Shown here in pieces: positions 32,592-38,527 of a DNA stretch of 64,000 nucleotides (its first letter is position 1; each line of letters begins with the position of its first letter). The notes under the pieces were generated by a model that did no database searches, was not told where the DNA came from, and saw only the letters and a program-made list of their open reading frames with translations. The stretch comes from an uncultured Acidobacteriaceae bacterium (GTDB taxonomy: Bacteria > Acidobacteriota > Terriglobia > Terriglobales > Acidobacteriaceae). The DNA is taken from contig CAVREU010000004.1 in the NCBI GenBank assembly GCA_963720245.1, positions 404,469 through 468,468 of the forward strand, read 5' to 3'. The position numbers and the translations under genes are program-made.

Positions 32592-35500
32592 TTAGAAGTT
32601 CAGCTCGCCTCCCAGCTCAAGCACGCGCGGATCGTAGGTGCTGGTGATCTTCCCAAAGTTTCCGCTGCCGAGCTGGTTGCCGATGCCCTGGTATTCCGCA
32701 TTGTTAAAGGTGTTGAAGGTCTCAATGCGAAGCTTGAAGTTAAGAGATTCCTTGATCGGGAATGTCTTGTAGAAGGAGGTGTTGAAGTTAGTCTGACCAG
32801 GTCCGAGCACCGCATCTTTGCGAGCGTTGCCAAAGCCCTGATTAAGACCGCCTGCCCACGCTGGGATCGGGTTAGCGAAAGCAGCAGGGTTGAACCACTC
32901 GTCTTGCTTCTTGGGATAGGAGATCTTGCCAACGATGTCCGGGCGGTTGGTATAGCCGCCACCCAGTCCGATCGGATCATAGTTGATGTTCAGGCCAGGA
33001 CCCTGGTTAGAGACCAGCAAGCCAGACTCGGAGACAAACGTTCCGGAAATCTGCCATCCATTTGCGACTTCCTGGATGAACCTGTTATCCCCTGGATATT
33101 TGGGGAAAGCGTAGATGTAGTTGATGCTCAGGATGTTGCGCCGGTCGAGTGCACCGGAGCCTTTGTCGTATTTCAGGTTGTAGGGATTGCTGACCTGAGC
33201 TAGATCGTAGGTGGTGATGTCGATCTCATGCGAATAGGTGTAGTCGATCTCGCCGCTCAGGCCGTGCTTGTTCTGGGCGCGCAATCCGGTTTGGAATCCG
33301 TTATAGGAGCCGTTGGTGGAGTTCGTTTGGTTGGTGATGCCGGCAAACCCCGGATAGTTACGGAGCAGGTTTGGCGCCGTTGGTGACGCACCTCCGGGAT
33401 TGGTGCCAGAGTTGTTGCTCGGGTCGCCGATATTAGCGCGGGTGTATCCTGCCAACCCGGGCGTGGTATTCACCAGCAGCGGAGTATTCAGCGAGTAGTT
33501 GTTGATGTTTTGTTCAATGTTCTGATGCCAGGCGAGGTTGCCTACATATTGCACGACCCAGATCAGCGAGGGTTGTACCTCACGCTGCACACCGAGGCTA
33601 TACTGCACCACGCCAGGCGCCGGGTAGTAAGGGTTAAGTGCCGTTAGTCCCTGAGGCAATATCGGGCTTCCGGCAGCTGCCCCCGTTGTCCAGCTCACTG
33701 CGGGAGTGCTGAACAGGGCGTTGGAAGCCTGCGGATCGTTAAAGAACGGCTCGTTGGTCGCTGCGTTGTAGATATCGTTCCCCTGCAATCTCTCGTAGAA
33801 GGAACCGATTCCACCCCGTAGAACGGTCTTGCCATCGCCAAAGAGATCGTCTGAGAATCCGACGCGTGGTTGGAGGGTCTGATAGTAGTTGGTGACCAGC
33901 CCCTTCGGGTAGCCGTTCTGGCCAGCCTGATACAGGCCATTCAGATAAAACGGTACCGGTGAGCCGGCAACTGGAACCAACCCCGGGCTGTCTGCGTTGA
34001 TTTGGCCGGTTGTCAGATTAAATGTTGCCGCATCGCTCGCTACATAGAGGGCCGGGTTGAAGTTTGAGATCTGGTTGTTACGTTCCCAGGCATGCGGCAA
34101 TGCGTCGTAGCGCAGGCCGATTTGCACGGCCAGACGGGGAGTCGCCTTCCAGTTATCCATGGCATATGCGGACGTCGTGTTGTTCACGTAATGCCGGATC
34201 GGCAGTTGCTGCGCTTGGTCGTAGTTGCTCGAAAGTCCAAGCACCATGTCCATGAAGGAATCATTGGTCAGCGAGCCCCAGCTGAAGTCTCCGCCTGGGT
34301 CGCCGAAGATCTGCTGGTTCTTGGTGTAATGATTCAGACCACCGCCGAACTTCAACTGATGCTTGCCCGTCGTGTAGGAGATGCTGAAGTTCGGAGAGTA
34401 GTCCTGCGCGGCGTTCTTCCACGGTGCCGAACCGGGTTTCTCTTGAGTGCCATACGGCGCGCCCCAGCTCATTCCGGGTAGGTTCTTGGAGCCGTTGCTG
34501 AAGAAGGGGGTAACGCCCCAGCCGGCCGGGGTGTCTCCGTTCGCGCTGTTGGTGATATCGATGATGTTGCCGTCGTAGTTGAAGGTCGCTTCCGCGAGCA
34601 GGTTGGGCTTCAGCGTCGCGGTCAACTTGACCACTGCGCTGTAAGACGGGTTGTTAAGCACACTCGTGATCGTCGGATAGCTGTTGCCCGACCAGCCCAG
34701 CATCGGAGCCGCATAGGCTTGGTTCACGGCATCGTGCAGGTAGTGGCCGAGCAGCTGATACTTGTCGTTGATCTTGTGATCGACGCGCAGTACATAGTCG
34801 GTCACATAAATCGGCTGGTTCGCGGAGGAGATGTTTTGCCCGTTCGCGAGATTCGGCTTGGGGATGACACCGGTGCCCAGATAGAGGGCTGCATTCGGGT
34901 TGATCAACGCCGCCGGGATAGTTTGGTTCGGAAATGGCTCTCCCTGGACAAGACCAAGGGTTGCGAATTCCTCAGCTAGGGTGGGGTTGTTGGGAACCGT
35001 CGGCACTTTAATGATCGTGTTCGGCGCGAATGCCGGCGCTACATAGTGAAGGTCCGAGCCGACGACCGGATAGTCCGCTGCAGCCAGCGTCTGCACCGAG
35101 TTGGGAGAACTGCCTTGAATGAGTCTGCGCTCTTCCAGATCGAAGAAGAAGAAGGTCTTCGATTTGTCGACATTGTAATGATTCGGGATCCAGATAGGGC
35201 CGCCAATATTGCCGCCGAAGATGTTGTAGTTCAGCTTGGTGCGGGGCTGTACCGGGTTGGCCTGCTTGTTGAAGTAGTTATTCGCGTCATACGCCGTGTT
35301 GCGGTTGAACTCCCATAGCTGACCATGGAAATTCTGGGTGCCGCTCTTGATGCCCAGCGTAATCGTCGCGCCGGAGGAGATACCGTAGTCCGGAGGATAG
35401 TTGCTGGCCAGGGTCTCAAACTGCGCGATTGCATCCTGCGAGGGCATGATGCTCATGCCGCCGGCGCCCCCACGGTCATCGGCCTCGCCGCCGTCAATCA

Positions 35501-36092
35501 GCCAGATGTTGTGGCTCTGGCGAAGACCGTTCACGCTGAGGGTAAAGTTTGAAGCGACCGAAGTAGGAGTGTTGTTCGAGGGCAGCGCGGAGCTGACGCC
35601 GAGTCCCAAAGCCGCGAGAGCGGCAAAATTCCGGTTCTCGGTAGCGAGGTCGGCGATCTGATCGGCATTGATCAGCGTACTCACCACGTTCGAGTCGGCC
35701 TGCACCTGGATAGCATTCGCTGCAACGGTGACCGTCTCGCTTACCGCACCAACGGTCAACTGCGCATCGGCGCTGAGCGTCTGTGAGACGTTCAGCTGCA
35801 GGCCCTGCGAAACGTAGCCCTCAAACCCTGTGGCAACGACCTTGATATTGTAGGTTCCCACGTTCAGGCCGGGGAAGCTGAAAAGGCCTGACTCGTTACT
35901 GACGGACTCTCTAACAAGGCCTGTGCTTGGCTGGGTGAGCGTGACTTTCGCTCCGGAGACAACCGCGCCCTGCTTGTCGGTCACGGTGCCGATGATCTCT
36001 GAGTTTTGTTGCGCGTGGGCGGCGACAGTCATCACTGCCAGCAATAGCGGCAGCAATAACAACCTGGAATAGAGCCGATTTCTCAATATCAT
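32592..36092 (-). CDS. Oar-like TonB-dependent receptor with carboxypeptidase-regulatory-like N-terminal domain
   Basis: GTVTDKQGAVVSGAKV N-domain, KSGTQNFHG.LWEFNRN, QPRVGF, FKLRIETFNTFN, C-terminal ELNF; GGAGG SD before ATG 36092. Confidence 0.93.
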   Translation of the reverse strand: MILRNRLYSRLLLLPLLLAVMTVAAHAQQNSEIIGTVTDKQGAVVSGAKVTLTQPSTGLVRESVSNESGLFSFPGLNVGTYNIKVVATGFEGYVSQGLQLNVSQTLSADAQLTVGAVSETVTVAANAIQVQADSNVVSTLINADQIADLATENRNFAALAALGLGVSSALPSNNTPTSVASNFTLSVNGLRQSHNIWLIDGGEADDRGGAGGMSIMPSQDAIAQFETLASNYPPDYGISSGATITLGIKSGTQNFHGQLWEFNRNTAYDANNYFNKQANPVQPRTKLNYNIFGGNIGGPIWIPNHYNVDKSKTFFFFDLEERRLIQGSSPNSVQTLAAADYPVVGSDLHYVAPAFAPNTIIKVPTVPNNPTLAEEFATLGLVQGEPFPNQTIPAALINPNAALYLGTGVIPKPNLANGQNISSANQPIYVTDYVLRVDHKINDKYQLLGHYLHDAVNQAYAAPMLGWSGNSYPTITSVLNNPSYSAVVKLTATLKPNLLAEATFNYDGNIIDITNSANGDTPAGWGVTPFFSNGSKNLPGMSWGAPYGTQEKPGSAPWKNAAQDYSPNFSISYTTGKHQLKFGGGLNHYTKNQQIFGDPGGDFSWGSLTNDSFMDMVLGLSSNYDQAQQLPIRHYVNNTTSAYAMDNWKATPRLAVQIGLRYDALPHAWERNNQISNFNPALYVASDAATFNLTTGQINADSPGLVPVAGSPVPFYLNGLYQAGQNGYPKGLVTNYYQTLQPRVGFSDDLFGDGKTVLRGGIGSFYERLQGNDIYNAATNEPFFNDPQASNALFSTPAVSWTTGAAAGSPILPQGLTALNPYYPAPGVVQYSLGVQREVQPSLIWVVQYVGNLAWHQNIEQNINNYSLNTPLLVNTTPGLAGYTRANIGDPSNNSGTNPGGASPTAPNLLRNYPGFAGITNQTNSTNGSYNGFQTGLRAQNKHGLSGEIDYTYSHEIDITTYDLAQVSNPYNLKYDKGSGALDRRNILSINYIYAFPKYPGDNRFIQEVANGWQISGTFVSESGLLVSNQGPGLNINYDPIGLGGGYTNRPDIVGKISYPKKQDEWFNPAAFANPIPAWAGGLNQGFGNARKDAVLGPGQTNFNTSFYKTFPIKESLNFKLRIETFNTFNNAEYQGIGNQLGSGNFGKITSTYDPRVLELGGELNF

Positions 36093-36640
36093 TGCGTTTC
36101 CTACCTCCCTGGAGTGTTGCAACAGCACAAATAGTTTCGAATCTTCTTGATAACGGAAGTTGCCGGCAAACGAGCCGATCCCATTTACGCATCATCGCGA
36201 ATGAGATTCCGACGCATGTTGGCCCGCATTTCATCGCTACTAAAACACTTTATCTAGTACGGTCACGAATCCTAACCAGATGCTCTAGCGAGTGTCAATG
36301 CAAATTTTGAGGATAAGTTACTCGTATGGAACCCAGTCCCCGTCCCCCAAGGGGAAGTAAGCGATAACGACGGCATGTTTCGACAGATTTGAGTCTTCCG
36401 GAAAGGGAACAAATCGCGGTTGCGGCATGAAATACCTAATAAGTCACGCGCAATTCATCGGCAGGCAAGGCTGCCGCCTGGAATATCGGCGCGAATCGCG
36501 GCAGTATTGGCTACTCTAGCTGCAGGCATGTCGCTCAATCCTCAAGGCCGGCCTGCACAGAGCGCTGCCGTCGAGTCATCGGCCCTGTGTCCGGGCCTGG
36601 CGACAGAGTAAGGCGTGCCCGATAGGAGAGGTTCCAGCAT

Positions 36641-37606
36641 TTGGAAGAGATGGCTGATCGGCGCCCGCGCAGGTTCCTCGCCATGTCGGTGATTGCGCTG
36701 GCGGCCTTCTCCTCGATGGCAGCGGGACAGGCCGCGGCGCCGGCCCCCATGGTCGCGGCACAACCCATGCCGTCGTTGCAGCCGCTCCTCGACTTCCGGA
36801 GCTCTGACATTAAGTTCAACCTGCAAAGCCTAATGTATGTGCTTCGCGACCGAAACCACGAAGACTGGGTGCTGGCCGCCTATCCCGACCCGAATACCGA
36901 ACTCCCGCTCATCGGCGCCGGCTTCAGTCTCAACGTCGCCGCGAGCGAGCACCCGCAGGGCGACCCGCTCAACCCCCACCAGTTCCTGGAGCCCTCTTCG
37001 GCGCAGTTATGGCAGGCCGCCGGCCTCGACCCGGAACAATTGCGGCAGATCCTCGAGGAGTTTGACCGCAATATGGATACGTGGGGAACCAAAGGCTATC
37101 ACCGCAAGATTCGCGCCCACACCTTGCGGCCTCAACTGACCGAACAGGAGGCGACCCAGCTGCTGCGGATCTCGGCAATCCAGGCGGTGGTCAACGCCCG
37201 GGCCTATTGCCGCAACTTCGACCAGCTCACCGGTCCCGCGCAGATGGCGCTCACCCAACTTGCCTTTCAGATGGGAATCAATCTGGAAGAGTTCGTCGAG
37301 TTCCTAAGTGAACTGAACGGCGACACCAGCCACCCCGACCTCTCCCAACCGGACGGCGGCATCGTCACCGCAGGCCAGCATTGGAAAAACGTGCAAAATG
37401 CGCTCATCGACAGCCAATGGGCGAGGCGCTACACGGTCCGCGCGATTGCCGTGATCGCAATGTTCGATCCGCAGTATGGAAGCAACCCGCGCGCCGCCGA
37501 AGCGCGAGTAATGGCCGTCCTCCCGCCGCCGGTGCAGCACAAGCATGGGCGCGGACGTTCAACAGCGCACCGCGCCCCACACGCGAAGACCCACGTCAAT
37601 CACTGA
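36641..37606 (+). CDS. Secreted T4/GH24-lysozyme-like protein
   Basis: HEDWVLAAYPDPNTELPLIGAGF resembles T4 lysozyme [28 protein letters not shown] and SQWARRYTVRAIAVIAMF resemble MVFQMG and SRWYNQTPNRAKRVITTF; signal peptide. Confidence 0.65.
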   Translation: MEEMADRRPRRFLAMSVIALAAFSSMAAGQAAAPAPMVAAQPMPSLQPLLDFRSSDIKFNLQSLMYVLRDRNHEDWVLAAYPDPNTELPLIGAGFSLNVAASEHPQGDPLNPHQFLEPSSAQLWQAAGLDPEQLRQILEEFDRNMDTWGTKGYHRKIRAHTLRPQLTEQEATQLLRISAIQAVVNARAYCRNFDQLTGPAQMALTQLAFQMGINLEEFVEFLSELNGDTSHPDLSQPDGGIVTAGQHWKNVQNALIDSQWARRYTVRAIAVIAMFDPQYGSNPRAAEARVMAVLPPPVQHKHGRGRSTAHRAPHAKTHVNH

Positions 37607-37633
37607 ATTACCATTACCCGCCGCGCAGGCCGG

Positions 37634-38527
37634 CTACCTGGCTCTCGCCACCTCGGCTTCGAGCGCCGACCACTCCTGGTCGCTGAGATGCACCCCAGCT
37701 GCGGCAGTGTTCTCCTCCAGATGCTTCACCGAAGAGGTGCCCGGAATCGGCAGCATTGCCGGAGAATGATGGAGCAGCCATGCCAGCGCCAACTGCGAGG
37801 CCGACACCCCACGTTGCGACGCGGCCTTGTCCAGAGGGCCGCCGGGATTGGCCAGCTTACCGGCTGCGACCGGGAACCAGGGGATGAACGCCAGCTTATG
37901 CTTCGCGCAAAAATCGACCGTGTCACCGTGCTTGCGATCGCCAATATTGAACTGATTTTGCACGCTGACGATTTCGATGGTCTTGCGCGCCCGTTCGATC
38001 TCCGCCGGCTTTACCTCTGACAGTCCGACGTGACGGATTTTCCCCTGTTTTTGAAGGTCCTTGATCGCTCCCAGAGATTCTTCAACCGGCACCTTGGGAT
38101 CGATGCGATGAAGCTGCCACAGGTCGATCCGCTCTACCTTGAGGCGGCGCAGCGACATCTCGACGCACTGCGCCAGATACTCCGGCCGCCCGACCGGCAA
38201 CCACTTGTTCGGGCCCTGCCTCGTGAGCCCACCCTTGGTGGCGATGACCAGGTCTTTCGGATAGGGGTGCAGCGCTTCCGCGATCAGTCGTTCGCTGACC
38301 TCGGGGCCGTAGGCGTCGGCGGTATCGATGAAATTGATTCCGAGGTCGATGGCGCGCTGTAGAACTCGGATCGATTCGTCGTGGTCCCTGGGTTCGCCCC
38401 AGATGCCCTCGCCGGTGATGCGCATCGCGCCAAAGCCCATGCGATTGACGGTGAGGTCGCCGCCGAGCGTCAAGCTTCCGCCCTGCGCAGCAATATTTTC
38501 AAGATTGATTGTCGTTGGAGTAGCCAT
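37634..38527 (-). CDS. Aldo/keto reductase
   Basis: GFGAM, IDTADAYG, IATKGG, DLWQLH, GKIRHVGLSE, PIPGTSS..HLEEN. Confidence 0.95.
   Translation of the reverse strand: MATPTTINLENIAAQGGSLTLGGDLTVNRMGFGAMRITGEGIWGEPRDHDESIRVLQRAIDLGINFIDTADAYGPEVSERLIAEALHPYPKDLVIATKGGLTRQGPNKWLPVGRPEYLAQCVEMSLRRLKVERIDLWQLHRIDPKVPVEESLGAIKDLQKQGKIRHVGLSEVKPAEIERARKTIEIVSVQNQFNIGDRKHGDTVDFCAKHKLAFIPWFPVAAGKLANPGGPLDKAASQRGVSASQLALAWLLHHSPAMLPIPGTSSVKHLEENTAAAGVHLSDQEWSALEAEVARAR

What the first reader, a model, noticed from the sequence alone, without database searches (positions are those of the whole stretch)
36641..37606. Phage-free, signal-peptide-bearing T4-lysozyme-like protein
Seen: N-terminal HEDWVLAAYPDP..PLIGAGF and C-terminal LAFQMG..SQWARRYTVRAIAVIAMF match the two lobes of T4 lysozyme, separated by a long insertion. 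Glu11 and Asp20 equivalents appear present, but the Thr26 position is Leu. The C-terminal tail is His/Arg/Lys-rich. No holin, spanin or other phage gene is nearby. Inference: a domesticated GH24-like muramidase used for cell-wall remodelling or as a secreted antibacterial, possibly with altered chemistry (changes at Thr26 are known to alter T4 lysozyme mechanism).
Basis: partly seen in the sequence, partly recalled or inferred. Interest (0 to 1): 0.65.

Follow-up and report, generated by a model that had tools for sequence, protein, structure and literature searches.

The report
Exported, non-phage T4-type lysozyme relative
A soil acidobacterium carries, as an ordinary stand-alone chromosomal gene, an exported and highly diverged relative of phage T4 lysozyme. 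It keeps two of the three classic active-site residues and always has leucine in place of the third, so it probably cuts bacterial cell wall outside the cytoplasm, possibly by altered chemistry.

Summary
ORF 36641-37606 (+) is real, though its start is most likely ATG 36650. It encodes a signal peptide, a variable Pro/Ala linker, a T4-lysozyme-fold domain with extra conserved segments, and a His/Arg/Lys-rich tail.

The protein itself hits no Pfam or NCBIfam model. The link to GH24 is nevertheless significant:
- A profile of the wider family hits T4 gp5 lysozyme and T4 lysozyme in the PDB at E about 1e-9.
- hhalign against a canonical GH24 profile gives 95.5% probability over both lobes.
- Two divergent members pass Pfam's PF00959 cut-off.
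- An AlphaFold2 model (pLDDT 80) retrieves only T4 lysozyme entries, its fusion constructs and the T4 gp5 lysozyme domain among the 50 listed Foldseek hits.

Glu74 and Asp83 match T4L Glu11 and Asp20. The Thr26 position is Leu in 172 of 175 family sequences.

The family is small, unnamed in NCBI and single-copy. It occurs in about 10% of genera of one acidobacterial family. It is absent from phage collections, and no neighbouring gene is conserved across genera.

Best reading: an exported peptidoglycan glycosidase that is not phage-linked. Its biological role and its chemistry (slow hydrolase or lytic transglycosylase) are untested. An earlier report of this scan described the same family in another genome. 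I class it as a new variant of a known kind, of moderate interest.

The parts
36650..37606 (+). Gene for the exported T4-lysozyme-like protein. The ORF is open from TTG 36641. ATG 36650 is the start codon conserved in four related genomes. The genome's own gene call uses ATG 36683.
   Evidence: (P0002, 307 aa)
36641..36730 (+). Signal peptide. Basic n-region DRRPRRF, h-region LAMSVIALAAFSSMAA, c-region A-x-G-Q as in the homologs. No lipobox Cys.
   Evidence: 146/165 members have a hydrophobic N-terminal segment; 4 have a lipobox-like motif
36731..36775 (+). Variable Pro/Ala-rich linker. Poorly conserved, and variable in length among homologs.
   Evidence: mean conservation 0.34; low pLDDT
36776..36925 (+). 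N-lobe with the catalytic motif HE74-x8-D83-x6-L90-IGAGF. Codons: E74 36860-36862, D83 36887-36889, L90 (T4L Thr26 position) 36908-36910.
36926..37132 (+). Expanded N-lobe segment. It holds a highly conserved loop (H104, Q106, D108, N111, F115, E117, S119, W124, G128) and a long helix (131-158). About 44 residues more than T4L has between its strand 3 and helix C.
   Evidence: (mean conservation 0.76)
37133..37471 (+). Interdomain helix and C-lobe. F209-Q210-M-G (T4L F104-Q105-M-G), W248, S258, W260, R267-A268 (T4L S136, W138, R145-A146). Contains a roughly 17-residue less-conserved insertion at 37316-37375.
37472..37534 (+). Conserved post-domain segment: helix 283-293, then PPP.
37535..37603 (+). 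Disordered His/Arg/Lys-rich tail. Its sequence is not conserved but its basic character is (pI 10-12 in 38 of 39 homologs, 9.7 in one). 17 of the 39 homologs end in KRK[LVT]T.

Best explanation
The gene encodes an exported glycosidase with the T4-lysozyme (GH24) fold, kept as a free-standing chromosomal gene by a subset of Acidobacteriaceae.

Shown:
- The gene, its export signal and the two-lobed T4L-type fold.
- Statistically significant homology to T4 lysozyme and the T4 gp5 lysozyme domain.
- Conservation of the general-acid Glu (E74), the Asp (D83) and the Phe-Gln sugar-binding motif of the C-lobe.
- Leu in place of Thr26.
- Absence of phage context and of any conserved partner gene.

Inferred:
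- After Sec export and signal-peptide cleavage, the enzyme binds peptidoglycan in the cleft between the lobes.
- Glu74 protonates the MurNAc-GlcNAc glycosidic oxygen.
- In T4L the attacking water is held by Asp20 and Thr26. The invariant Leu90 removes half of that water site. The enzyme is therefore either a slowed hydrolase using Asp83, possibly with residues of the conserved inserted loop, or a lytic transglycosylase-like enzyme that excludes water.
- The disordered polycationic, His-rich tail (more charged at the low pH these bacteria live at) docks the enzyme on anionic cell-wall material.
- The gene is accessory (about 10% of genera), single-copy and never tied to a secretion machine or an immunity gene. 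I therefore favour action on foreign or dead cell wall (bacteriolysis or necromass use) over a dedicated role in the cell's own wall growth. This last step is the weakest.
For: Fold and homology:
- AF2 model pLDDT 80.1, pTM 0.74. The 50 Foldseek PDB hits listed are T4L, T4L fusion constructs or T4 gp5, prob 1.00, TM 0.59-0.66 for the stand-alone T4L and gp5-domain entries when normalised to target length.
- A2 profile against PDB: E 8e-10 for T4 gp5 lysozyme and T4L, both lobes aligned.
- hhalign of A2 against canonical GH24: Prob 95.5%, E 1.4e-8.
- Family members P0246 and P0263 score 35.8 and 37.7 bits on PF00959 (cut-off 22.3).

Catalytic and binding residues:
- E74 is invariant in the core family and nearly invariant in the wider one. 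D83 is invariant in both. F/Y-Q-M-G is conserved.
- Leu at the Thr26 column in 172/175 sequences, Thr in 2 divergent members.
- Role of Asp20/Thr26 (hold the water) and Glu11 (acid) in T4L: PMC8334348, PMC5606550.

Export:
- Hydrophobic N-terminal segment in 146/165 members. Divergent members carry MKRRDFL Tat-type signals.

Not phage:
- Neighbours are PDH E1, TPR, cytochrome c, an OMP barrel, an aldo-keto reductase and an ECF sigma/anti-sigma pair.
- Other genomes show different housekeeping contexts.
- None in IMG/VR. No phage tblastn hit.

Accessory and single-copy:
- Present in 6 of the 8 other same-genus genomes, 14 of 142 genera of the family, and not elsewhere in the phylum.

Tail:
- pI about 12, basic in all 39 aligned homologs.
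Against: - No activity data exist.
- The window protein alone matches no lysozyme model. Its close-family profile A1 reaches T4L only at E 1e-3 to 2e-2.
- Foldseek E-values are weak (0.014) and rmsd is large (6-10 A), so the lobes or insertions are placed differently from T4L.
- The geometry of E74, D83 and L90 in the model could not be measured.
- T4L variants at Thr26 are inactive or mechanistically changed, so a Leu could mean weak or no hydrolysis.
- An active muramidase exported by Sec into the producer's own periplasm should be dangerous (own knowledge: exported T4L and SAR endolysins lyse cells). This is unexplained unless activity is low, the enzyme is secreted further, or the producer's wall is protected.
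- Nothing shows passage across the outer membrane.
Confidence: 0.65

Rival explanations
1. Periplasmic autolysin or space-maker acting on the cell's own peptidoglycan, like Brucella SagA, Salmonella TtsA, FlgJ or VirB1-type enzymes. The Thr-to-Leu change would tune activity down, or convert the enzyme to a lytic transglycosylase, so that it is safe in the periplasm.
For: - The Sec-type signal has no obvious further secretion signal.
- Non-phage T4L-like autolysins are known (SagA, TtsA; PMC8334348).
- Very strong purifying selection: 55-80% identity across genera and about 70 invariant positions.
- The altered water site would fit a lytic transglycosylase, the usual chemistry of housekeeping glycan cleavage (own knowledge).
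Against: - Present in only about 10% of genera and missing from complete genomes of the same genus (G006, 99% complete), so it is not a core wall function.
- It is never next to a secretion system, flagellar or pilus cluster. No neighbour is conserved across genera, whereas specialised autolysins are normally encoded with their machine.
- The polycationic tail is not explained.
Confidence: 0.25
2. Remnant endolysin of a decayed prophage, for example a signal-anchor-release type endolysin, with no present cellular role.
For: - GH24 is predominantly a phage family.
- The N-terminal Ala/Ser/Gly-rich hydrophobic segment superficially resembles a SAR domain.
Against: - No phage genes lie in the 26 kb annotated around the gene, 24-50 kb of the window, or around homologs in other genomes.
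- No member in 2.9 million viral contigs or in 50,697 phage records.
- The frame is intact and strongly conserved in 14 genera at different chromosomal places.
- The signal is followed by an A-x-G-Q cleavage-type region and a Pro-rich linker, which is not a SAR layout.
Confidence: 0.03
3. The fold is lysozyme-like but the substrate is not peptidoglycan. It could be chitin, chitosan or an acidobacterial or foreign exopolysaccharide. Alternatively the protein is a non-catalytic glycan-binding protein.
For: - The lysozyme superfamily includes GH19 and GH46 chitin/chitosan enzymes (own knowledge; PMC2976769, listed).
- The catalytic triad is incomplete (L90).
- The most conserved novel element is an inserted loop rich in polar and aromatic residues that could remodel the cleft.
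- Acidobacteriaceae are rich in glycoside hydrolases (GH38, GH106 and GH1 genes lie near some copies).
Against: - The 50 structural hits listed and all 60 sequence hits listed are T4-type muramidases, with no GH19 or GH46 among them.
- The Phe-Gln motif and the S..W......RA block, which contact peptidoglycan in T4L-type enzymes (PMC8334348), are conserved.
- Invariant E74 and D83 argue for catalysis.
Confidence: 0.07

Closest known systems
Phage T4 lysozyme (gene e) and the lysozyme domain of T4 gp5; GH24, Pfam PF00959
   Same: - Two-lobed fold.
- Glu-x8-Asp motif on the N-lobe hairpin followed by x-I-G-x-G.
- Long interdomain helix starting (I/L)T-x-x-E-A.
- F-Q-M-G and S-x-W...R-A blocks of the C-lobe.
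- These are the best sequence and structure matches.
   Different: - Thr26 is replaced by Leu.
- His precedes the catalytic Glu.
- One extra residue lies between the Asp and the Thr26 position.
- About 44 extra, highly conserved residues in the N-lobe and about 17 in the C-lobe.
- It has a cleavable signal peptide, a linker, a post-domain helix and a polycationic tail.
- It is chromosomal, with no holin or spanin.
- It is too diverged to hit PF00959 on its own.
Brucella abortus SagA and Salmonella Typhi TtsA (chromosomal T4L-like muramidases serving secretion)
   Same: T4L-related enzymes that are not phage-encoded and act on peptidoglycan for a cellular purpose (PMC8334348).
   Different: - SagA and TtsA keep the full Glu/Asp/Thr triad, have a different C-terminal peptidoglycan-binding domain, and are functionally tied to a secretion process. 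SagA also has an inhibitor, PhiA.
- Here there is no partner gene and no Thr.
- They did not appear among the sequence hits listed.
Secreted eukaryotic or fungal GH24 muramidases (e.g. Trichophaea saccata GH24 with an SH3-like wall-binding domain)
   Same: GH24 catalytic domain with a signal peptide, used outside a phage lysis cassette, plus an added wall-binding element (abstract of PMC10394673).
   Different: These are canonical GH24 by sequence, and the binding module is a folded SH3-like domain rather than a disordered basic tail. I did not compare sequences.
Canonical 145-aa GH24 lysozyme of the same genome (G000:C7:657605-657979)
   Same: Same superfamily. It is also widely conserved in Acidobacteriaceae.
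   Different: - It scores 159.7 bits on PF00959, has the full E-x8-D-x5-T triad, and has no signal peptide, insertions or tail.
- Its family profile aligns to the wider family profile A2 only at the profile-profile level.
- The two are therefore not recent paralogs.
Engineered T4L Thr26 variants (T26H transglycosidase, T26E covalent adduct)
   Same: They show that this position sets the stereochemical course and outcome of the reaction (PMC5606550).
   Different: Those variants introduce a nucleophile. Leu cannot act as one, so the analogy only says that the water site is altered, not what the new chemistry is.

Membership tests
GH24 / Pfam PF00959 Phage_lysozyme (T4-type) | Sequence match to the family model above its curated cut-off | tested here: not met
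   The window protein has no PF00959 hit even at E<=10 and no NCBIfam hit. However, 9 of 18 members of the wider family match at E<=1, and two (P0246, P0263) exceed the 22.3-bit cut-off. Membership is therefore transitive, at superfamily or divergent-subfamily level.
GH24 / Pfam PF00959 Phage_lysozyme (T4-type) | Two-lobed T4-lysozyme fold | tested here: met
   AF2 model pLDDT 80. The 50 Foldseek PDB hits listed are T4L, its fusion constructs or gp5, prob 1.00, TM about 0.64 on T4L length. Caveat: E 0.014 and rmsd 6-10 A.
GH24 / Pfam PF00959 Phage_lysozyme (T4-type) | Significant profile-level homology over both lobes | tested here: met
   hhalign of A2 against A3: Prob 95.5%, E 1.4e-8, 137 columns. 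hmmsearch of A2 against PDB: E 8e-10.
GH24 / Pfam PF00959 Phage_lysozyme (T4-type) | General-acid Glu (T4L Glu11) | tested here: met
   E74 is invariant in 39 core members and nearly invariant in the wider set. It aligns to the GH24 Glu.
GH24 / Pfam PF00959 Phage_lysozyme (T4-type) | Asp on the hairpin (T4L Asp20) | tested here: met
   D83 is invariant in both alignments and aligns to the GH24 Asp.
GH24 / Pfam PF00959 Phage_lysozyme (T4-type) | Thr that, with the Asp, holds the nucleophilic water (T4L Thr26) | tested here: not met
   Leu90 is at this column: Leu in 172/175 family sequences, Thr in 2, Val in 1.
GH24 / Pfam PF00959 Phage_lysozyme (T4-type) | Hydrophobic-Asn/Gln peptidoglycan-binding motif of the C-lobe (T4L F104-Q105) | tested here: met
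   F209-Q210-M-G. The motif is F/Y-Q in 193 of the 194 sequences that carry it (Y-N in one). The motif's role is described in PMC8334348.
GH24 / Pfam PF00959 Phage_lysozyme (T4-type) | Muramidase activity with inversion of configuration | not testable with these tools
   Needs enzyme assays and product analysis.
Phage lysis cassette endolysin | Encoded with holin/spanin or other phage genes, or present in phage genomes | tested here: not met
Lytic transglycosylase (functional class) | Single catalytic Glu in a water-excluding site; product is 1,6-anhydroMurNAc | not testable with these tools
   Only indirect evidence: a hydrophobic Leu replaces the water-holding Thr, but the Asp is retained.

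The most novel reading that the evidence does not exclude
This is a GH24-derived enzyme family that has changed its chemistry or substrate. The invariant Thr26-to-Leu swap, the His-Glu pair and the conserved inserted loop would turn a T4-type inverting muramidase into a lytic transglycosylase, or into a glycosidase with a new specificity. The His-rich polycationic tail would be an acid-switched anchor. Together they would let acid-soil Acidobacteriaceae lyse neighbours or harvest cell-wall necromass with a single self-contained secreted protein.
Probability: 0.2. Interest if true: 0.6.

Novelty: new variant of a known kind. Interest (0 to 1): 0.42.

Why it matters
GH24 is one of the best-studied enzyme folds, yet this branch is unnamed. 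No member listed in the homolog search has a Pfam domain assigned, and NCBI calls the members hypothetical.

It offers a natural experiment at the Thr26 position, which protein engineers have shown controls the mechanism of T4 lysozyme.

If active, it would add a new GH24 subfamily. It would also be a compact exported wall-degrading enzyme with a built-in cationic tail, which is of interest for endolysin engineering against Gram-negative bacteria. And it would bear on how abundant soil Acidobacteriaceae compete for, or recycle, bacterial cell wall.

It does not open a long-standing question. An earlier report of this scan already described the family in another genome.

Tried and rejected
- Searches with the protein alone gave nothing usable. 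Pfam gave only a noise hit (Arg_decarbox_C, E 0.05). NCBIfam gave none. PDB gave only noise (MTIP, E 0.26). PHROGs gave only weak tail-lysozyme and endolysin hits (E 0.004-0.15).
- hhalign of the close-family profile A1 against a single T4L sequence aligned the C-lobe only (Prob 60%). Against the canonical GH24 profile it failed (Prob 5%). The wider alignment A2 was needed.
- A conserved operon partner or immunity gene was sought in 14 genomes with 8 kb flanks. None was found beyond the three closest genomes.
- The recurrent CarboxypepD_reg/OMP barrel neighbour (4 of 12 loci) is probably chance. The genome has about 45 such genes.
- The 63-codon ORF with a hydrophobic stretch just upstream (36420-36611) was considered as a holin-like gene. 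I rejected it because the region aligns with indels and only a 23-nt block is conserved.
- That 23-nt block was sought upstream of the gene in other genera and not found.
- Rfam found nothing in 36000-37800. No terminator-like site was found. The only promoter-like site faces the neighbouring OMP gene.
- T86 was considered as a displaced substitute for Thr26. I rejected it because it is not conserved in divergent members that also lack Thr at the canonical position.
- The Kuroki 1999 paper (PMC17713) is not held.
Full report
**1. The observation**

The ORF listing gives a 321-codon ORF at 36641-37606 (+).

Aligning the upstream region with three closely related genomes shows that ATG 36650 is conserved, while TTG 36641 is not. 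The protein is therefore most likely 318 residues. The genome's own gene call starts at ATG 36683, giving 307 aa (P0002). Residue numbers below follow the 321-residue translation; codon positions were checked.

**2. Anatomy**

A 39-sequence alignment (A1), the conservation profile and the AlphaFold2 model (mean pLDDT 80.1, pTM 0.74) give this layout:

| Residues | Element |
|---|---|
| 1-30 | Signal peptide: basic n-region, hydrophobic core, A-x-G-Q c-region |
| 31-45 | Unconserved Pro/Ala linker, variable in length among homologs |
| 46-95 | N-lobe with H73-E74-x8-D83-x6-L90-I-G-A-G-F |
| 96-164 | Strongly conserved extra segment: loop with invariant H104, Q106, D108, N111, F115, E117, S119, W124, G128, then a long helix at 131-158 |
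| 165-277 | Interdomain helix and C-lobe, with F209-Q210-M-G, W248, S258, W260, R267-A268 and a less conserved insertion at 226-245 |
| 278-298 | Conserved short helix and PPP |
| 299-321 | Disordered His/Arg/Lys-rich tail |

The core has pI about 5.2 and the tail about 12. The tail sequence is not conserved, but it is basic in all 39 homologs, and 17 of them end in KRK[LVT]T.

**3. Is it really a T4-lysozyme relative?**

The protein alone matches no Pfam or NCBIfam model, and only noise in PDB sequences. PHROGs give weak hits to tail lysozymes and endolysins.

The close-family profile A1 reaches T4L at E 1e-3 to 2e-2, over the C-lobe only.

An exhaustive HMM search of 1.84 billion cluster representatives found only 185 clusters at E<=1e-3, many of them fragments. 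This is a small, isolated family.

That search also gave divergent full-length members. An alignment including them (A2) makes the link significant:
- hmmsearch of A2 against PDB sequences hits the T4 gp5 lysozyme domain and T4L at E 8e-10 to 2e-8, with both the N-lobe motif and the C-lobe aligned.
- hhalign of A2 against a profile of canonical GH24 lysozymes (A3, built from the genome's own 145-aa GH24, its homologs and T4L) gives Prob 95.5%, E 1.4e-8, over 137 columns.
- Nine of 18 A2 members match PF00959 at E<=1. Two (P0246 at 35.8 bits, P0263 at 37.7 bits) exceed the 22.3-bit cut-off.

Foldseek with the model gives 90 PDB matches. The 50 listed are T4L, T4L fusion constructs or T4 gp5, with probability 1.00 and TM about 0.64 normalised to T4L. 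E is only 0.014 and rmsd is 6-10 A. BFVD gives phage lysozymes at similar weak scores.

The fold and homology claim therefore stands. The weak structural scores reflect the insertions and probably a different lobe arrangement.

**4. Active site**

The profile alignments put E74 on T4L Glu11, D83 on Asp20 and L90 on Thr26, with one extra residue in the hairpin.

| Position | Conservation |
|---|---|
| E74 | Invariant in A1, nearly invariant in A2 |
| D83 | Invariant in both |
| Thr26 column | Leu 172, Thr 2 (the divergent P0157 and P0246), Val 1, out of 175 sequences carrying the motif |
| Residue before the Glu | His in 169 of 175 |

The hydrophobic-Gln motif (F/Y-Q-M/I-G) and the S-x-W...R-A block of the C-lobe are kept. 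PMC8334348 describes the hydrophobic-Asn/Gln motif as essential for contacts with peptidoglycan in the T4L family.

In T4L the nucleophilic water is held by Asp20 and Thr26, and Glu11 is the acid (PMC8334348). Changing Thr26 gives an inactive covalent adduct (T26E) or a retaining transglycosidase (T26H) (PMC5606550).

A Leu cannot bind water or act as a nucleophile. Either hydrolysis proceeds with Asp83 alone, perhaps helped by the conserved inserted loop, or water is excluded and the enzyme behaves like a lytic transglycosylase. This is inference. I could not measure distances, because the tools return no coordinates.

**5. Export**

Of 165 family sequences with a complete N-terminus, 146 have a hydrophobic 12-mer of at least 1.6 (Kyte-Doolittle) ahead of the domain. 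Four have a lipobox-like motif and 15 an RR motif.

Divergent members begin MKRRDFL/MNRRELL, which are weak Pfam TAT_signal matches.

Export is a family trait. The window protein has RRPRRFLAM, but its closest relatives lack the twin arginine, so Sec is more likely.

**6. Context and distribution**

Around the gene lie:
- pyruvate dehydrogenase E1;
- TPR proteins;
- a multihaem cytochrome;
- a CarboxypepD_reg/OMP barrel protein (32592-36128, minus strand);
- an aldo-keto reductase (37634-38527, minus strand, convergent, 27 bp away);
- an ECF sigma/anti-sigma pair;
- a hybrid kinase/GGDEF/EAL protein;
- a GH38.

There is no phage gene.

This synteny holds only in the three closest genomes. In eleven further genomes the gene sits in unrelated housekeeping contexts, and no neighbour is shared.

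The OMP barrel recurs near 4 of 12 loci. The genome has about 45 such genes, so this is near chance expectation.

Presence across genomes:

| Set searched | Result |
|---|---|
| Other genomes of the same genus | 6 of 8; absent from one that is 99% complete |
| Genera of the family | 14 of 142 |
| 400 genomes across the phylum | The window's own genome is the only family-level hit; one other hit is a weak match to a 165-aa ORF |
| Viral contigs (2.9 million) | None |
| Phage records (50,697) | No significant tblastn hit |

The gene is always single-copy. The genus contains the 7.11-Mb contig on which the Acidisarcina polymorpha protein P0091 lies. Named members are Acidisarcina polymorpha ACPOL_5706 and a Silvibacterium MAG, both annotated as 'hypothetical protein'. 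A few JGI records call homologs 'GH24 family phage-related lysozyme'.

**7. Interpretation**

Shown:
- a conserved, exported, free-standing protein with the T4L fold and no phage link;
- an intact Glu/Asp pair and sugar-binding motifs;
- a Leu at the Thr26 site;
- conserved added segments and a basic tail.

Inferred: it cleaves peptidoglycan glycan strands outside the cytoplasm, with altered handling of the nucleophile.

I lean to an outward-acting role (lysis of other bacteria or use of wall debris), for three reasons:
- the gene is accessory;
- it is unlinked to any machine or immunity gene;
- it carries a polycationic tail of the kind that binds anionic envelopes (own knowledge of cationic endolysin tails).

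A periplasmic autolysin or lytic-transglycosylase role is a serious rival. One open problem for any reading is how the producer tolerates an exported muramidase.

The other rivals (prophage remnant, non-peptidoglycan substrate, non-catalytic binder) are weakly supported. They are set out in the rival explanations.

**8. Comparison and novelty**

The closest known relatives are T4 lysozyme and the gp5 lysozyme domain (GH24).

Functional analogues that are not phage-encoded are Brucella SagA and Salmonella TtsA, and secreted fungal GH24 muramidases. All of these keep the full triad.

Membership in PF00959 is not met by the protein itself and is met only transitively. One defining residue (Thr26) was tested and not met.

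I class it as a new variant of a known kind: an uncharacterised, divergent GH24 subfamily.

An earlier report of this scan (e1-5198630) reached the same conclusion for a homolog in another genome. That report is not independent evidence, but it shows the family has already been flagged.

Interest is moderate.

**9. Limits**

- No model coordinates.
- No biochemical data.

Noticed in passing
G000:C7:657605-657979 (locus L029:1480-1917, minus strand), outside the window: The same genome has a canonical 145-aa GH24 lysozyme (PF00959, 159.7 bits, full E-x8-D-x5-T triad). It has no signal peptide. In the 3.4 kb examined, no phage gene is evident by reading the ORF translations, which were not scanned against any library: by my reading the ORFs on either side encode a phosphate-binding-like protein and a glycyl-tRNA synthetase alpha-like protein. 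It has over 6000 homologs, including named ones in Granulicella and Edaphobacter. How a cytoplasmic lysozyme without a holin is used is unclear.
   Followed up: partly
window 36503-36525: A 23-nt block GTATTGGCTACTCTAGCTGCA(G/T)G lies about 130 nt upstream of the start codon. It contains a short inverted repeat (GCTA-CTC-TAGC). It is 19-23/23 conserved in the four closest genomes while its flanks are not, and it is absent upstream of the gene in other genera. It is a possible promoter or operator.
   Followed up: partly
window 36236-36300: A strongly conserved intergenic block (TAGTAAAACACTTTA...GAATCCTAACCAGATGCTCTAGCGAGTGTCAATG) includes a TTGACA-18-TAGGAT promoter-like site on the minus strand. 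It is probably the promoter region of the neighbouring CarboxypepD_reg/OMP barrel gene (32592-36128).
   Followed up: no
proteins P0146, P0157, P0163, P0179 (divergent family members from metagenomes): A divergent clade of the family starts with MKRRDFL/MNRRELL twin-arginine-type signals instead of Sec-type signals. P0157 and P0246 retain Thr at the Thr26 position, so the Thr-to-Leu change happened within the family.
   Followed up: partly
C-termini of homologs in alignment A1 (e.g. P0031, P0036, P0042, P0057, P0058, P0106): Seventeen of the 39 aligned homologs end in a conserved K-R-K-(L/V/T)-T after an otherwise unconserved basic tail. The window protein lacks this ending. Its meaning is unknown; it could be a sorting, binding or processing signal.
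   Followed up: no
window 37604-37636: The lysozyme-like gene and the convergent aldo-keto reductase gene end 27 bp apart, with no terminator-like hairpin detected between them.
   Followed up: no
G000 whole genome: About 45 genes of the CarboxypepD_reg + OMP_b-brl_4 outer-membrane barrel type (71 matching pieces) occur in a 5.8-Mb genome. Several carry in-frame stops or are split.
   Followed up: no
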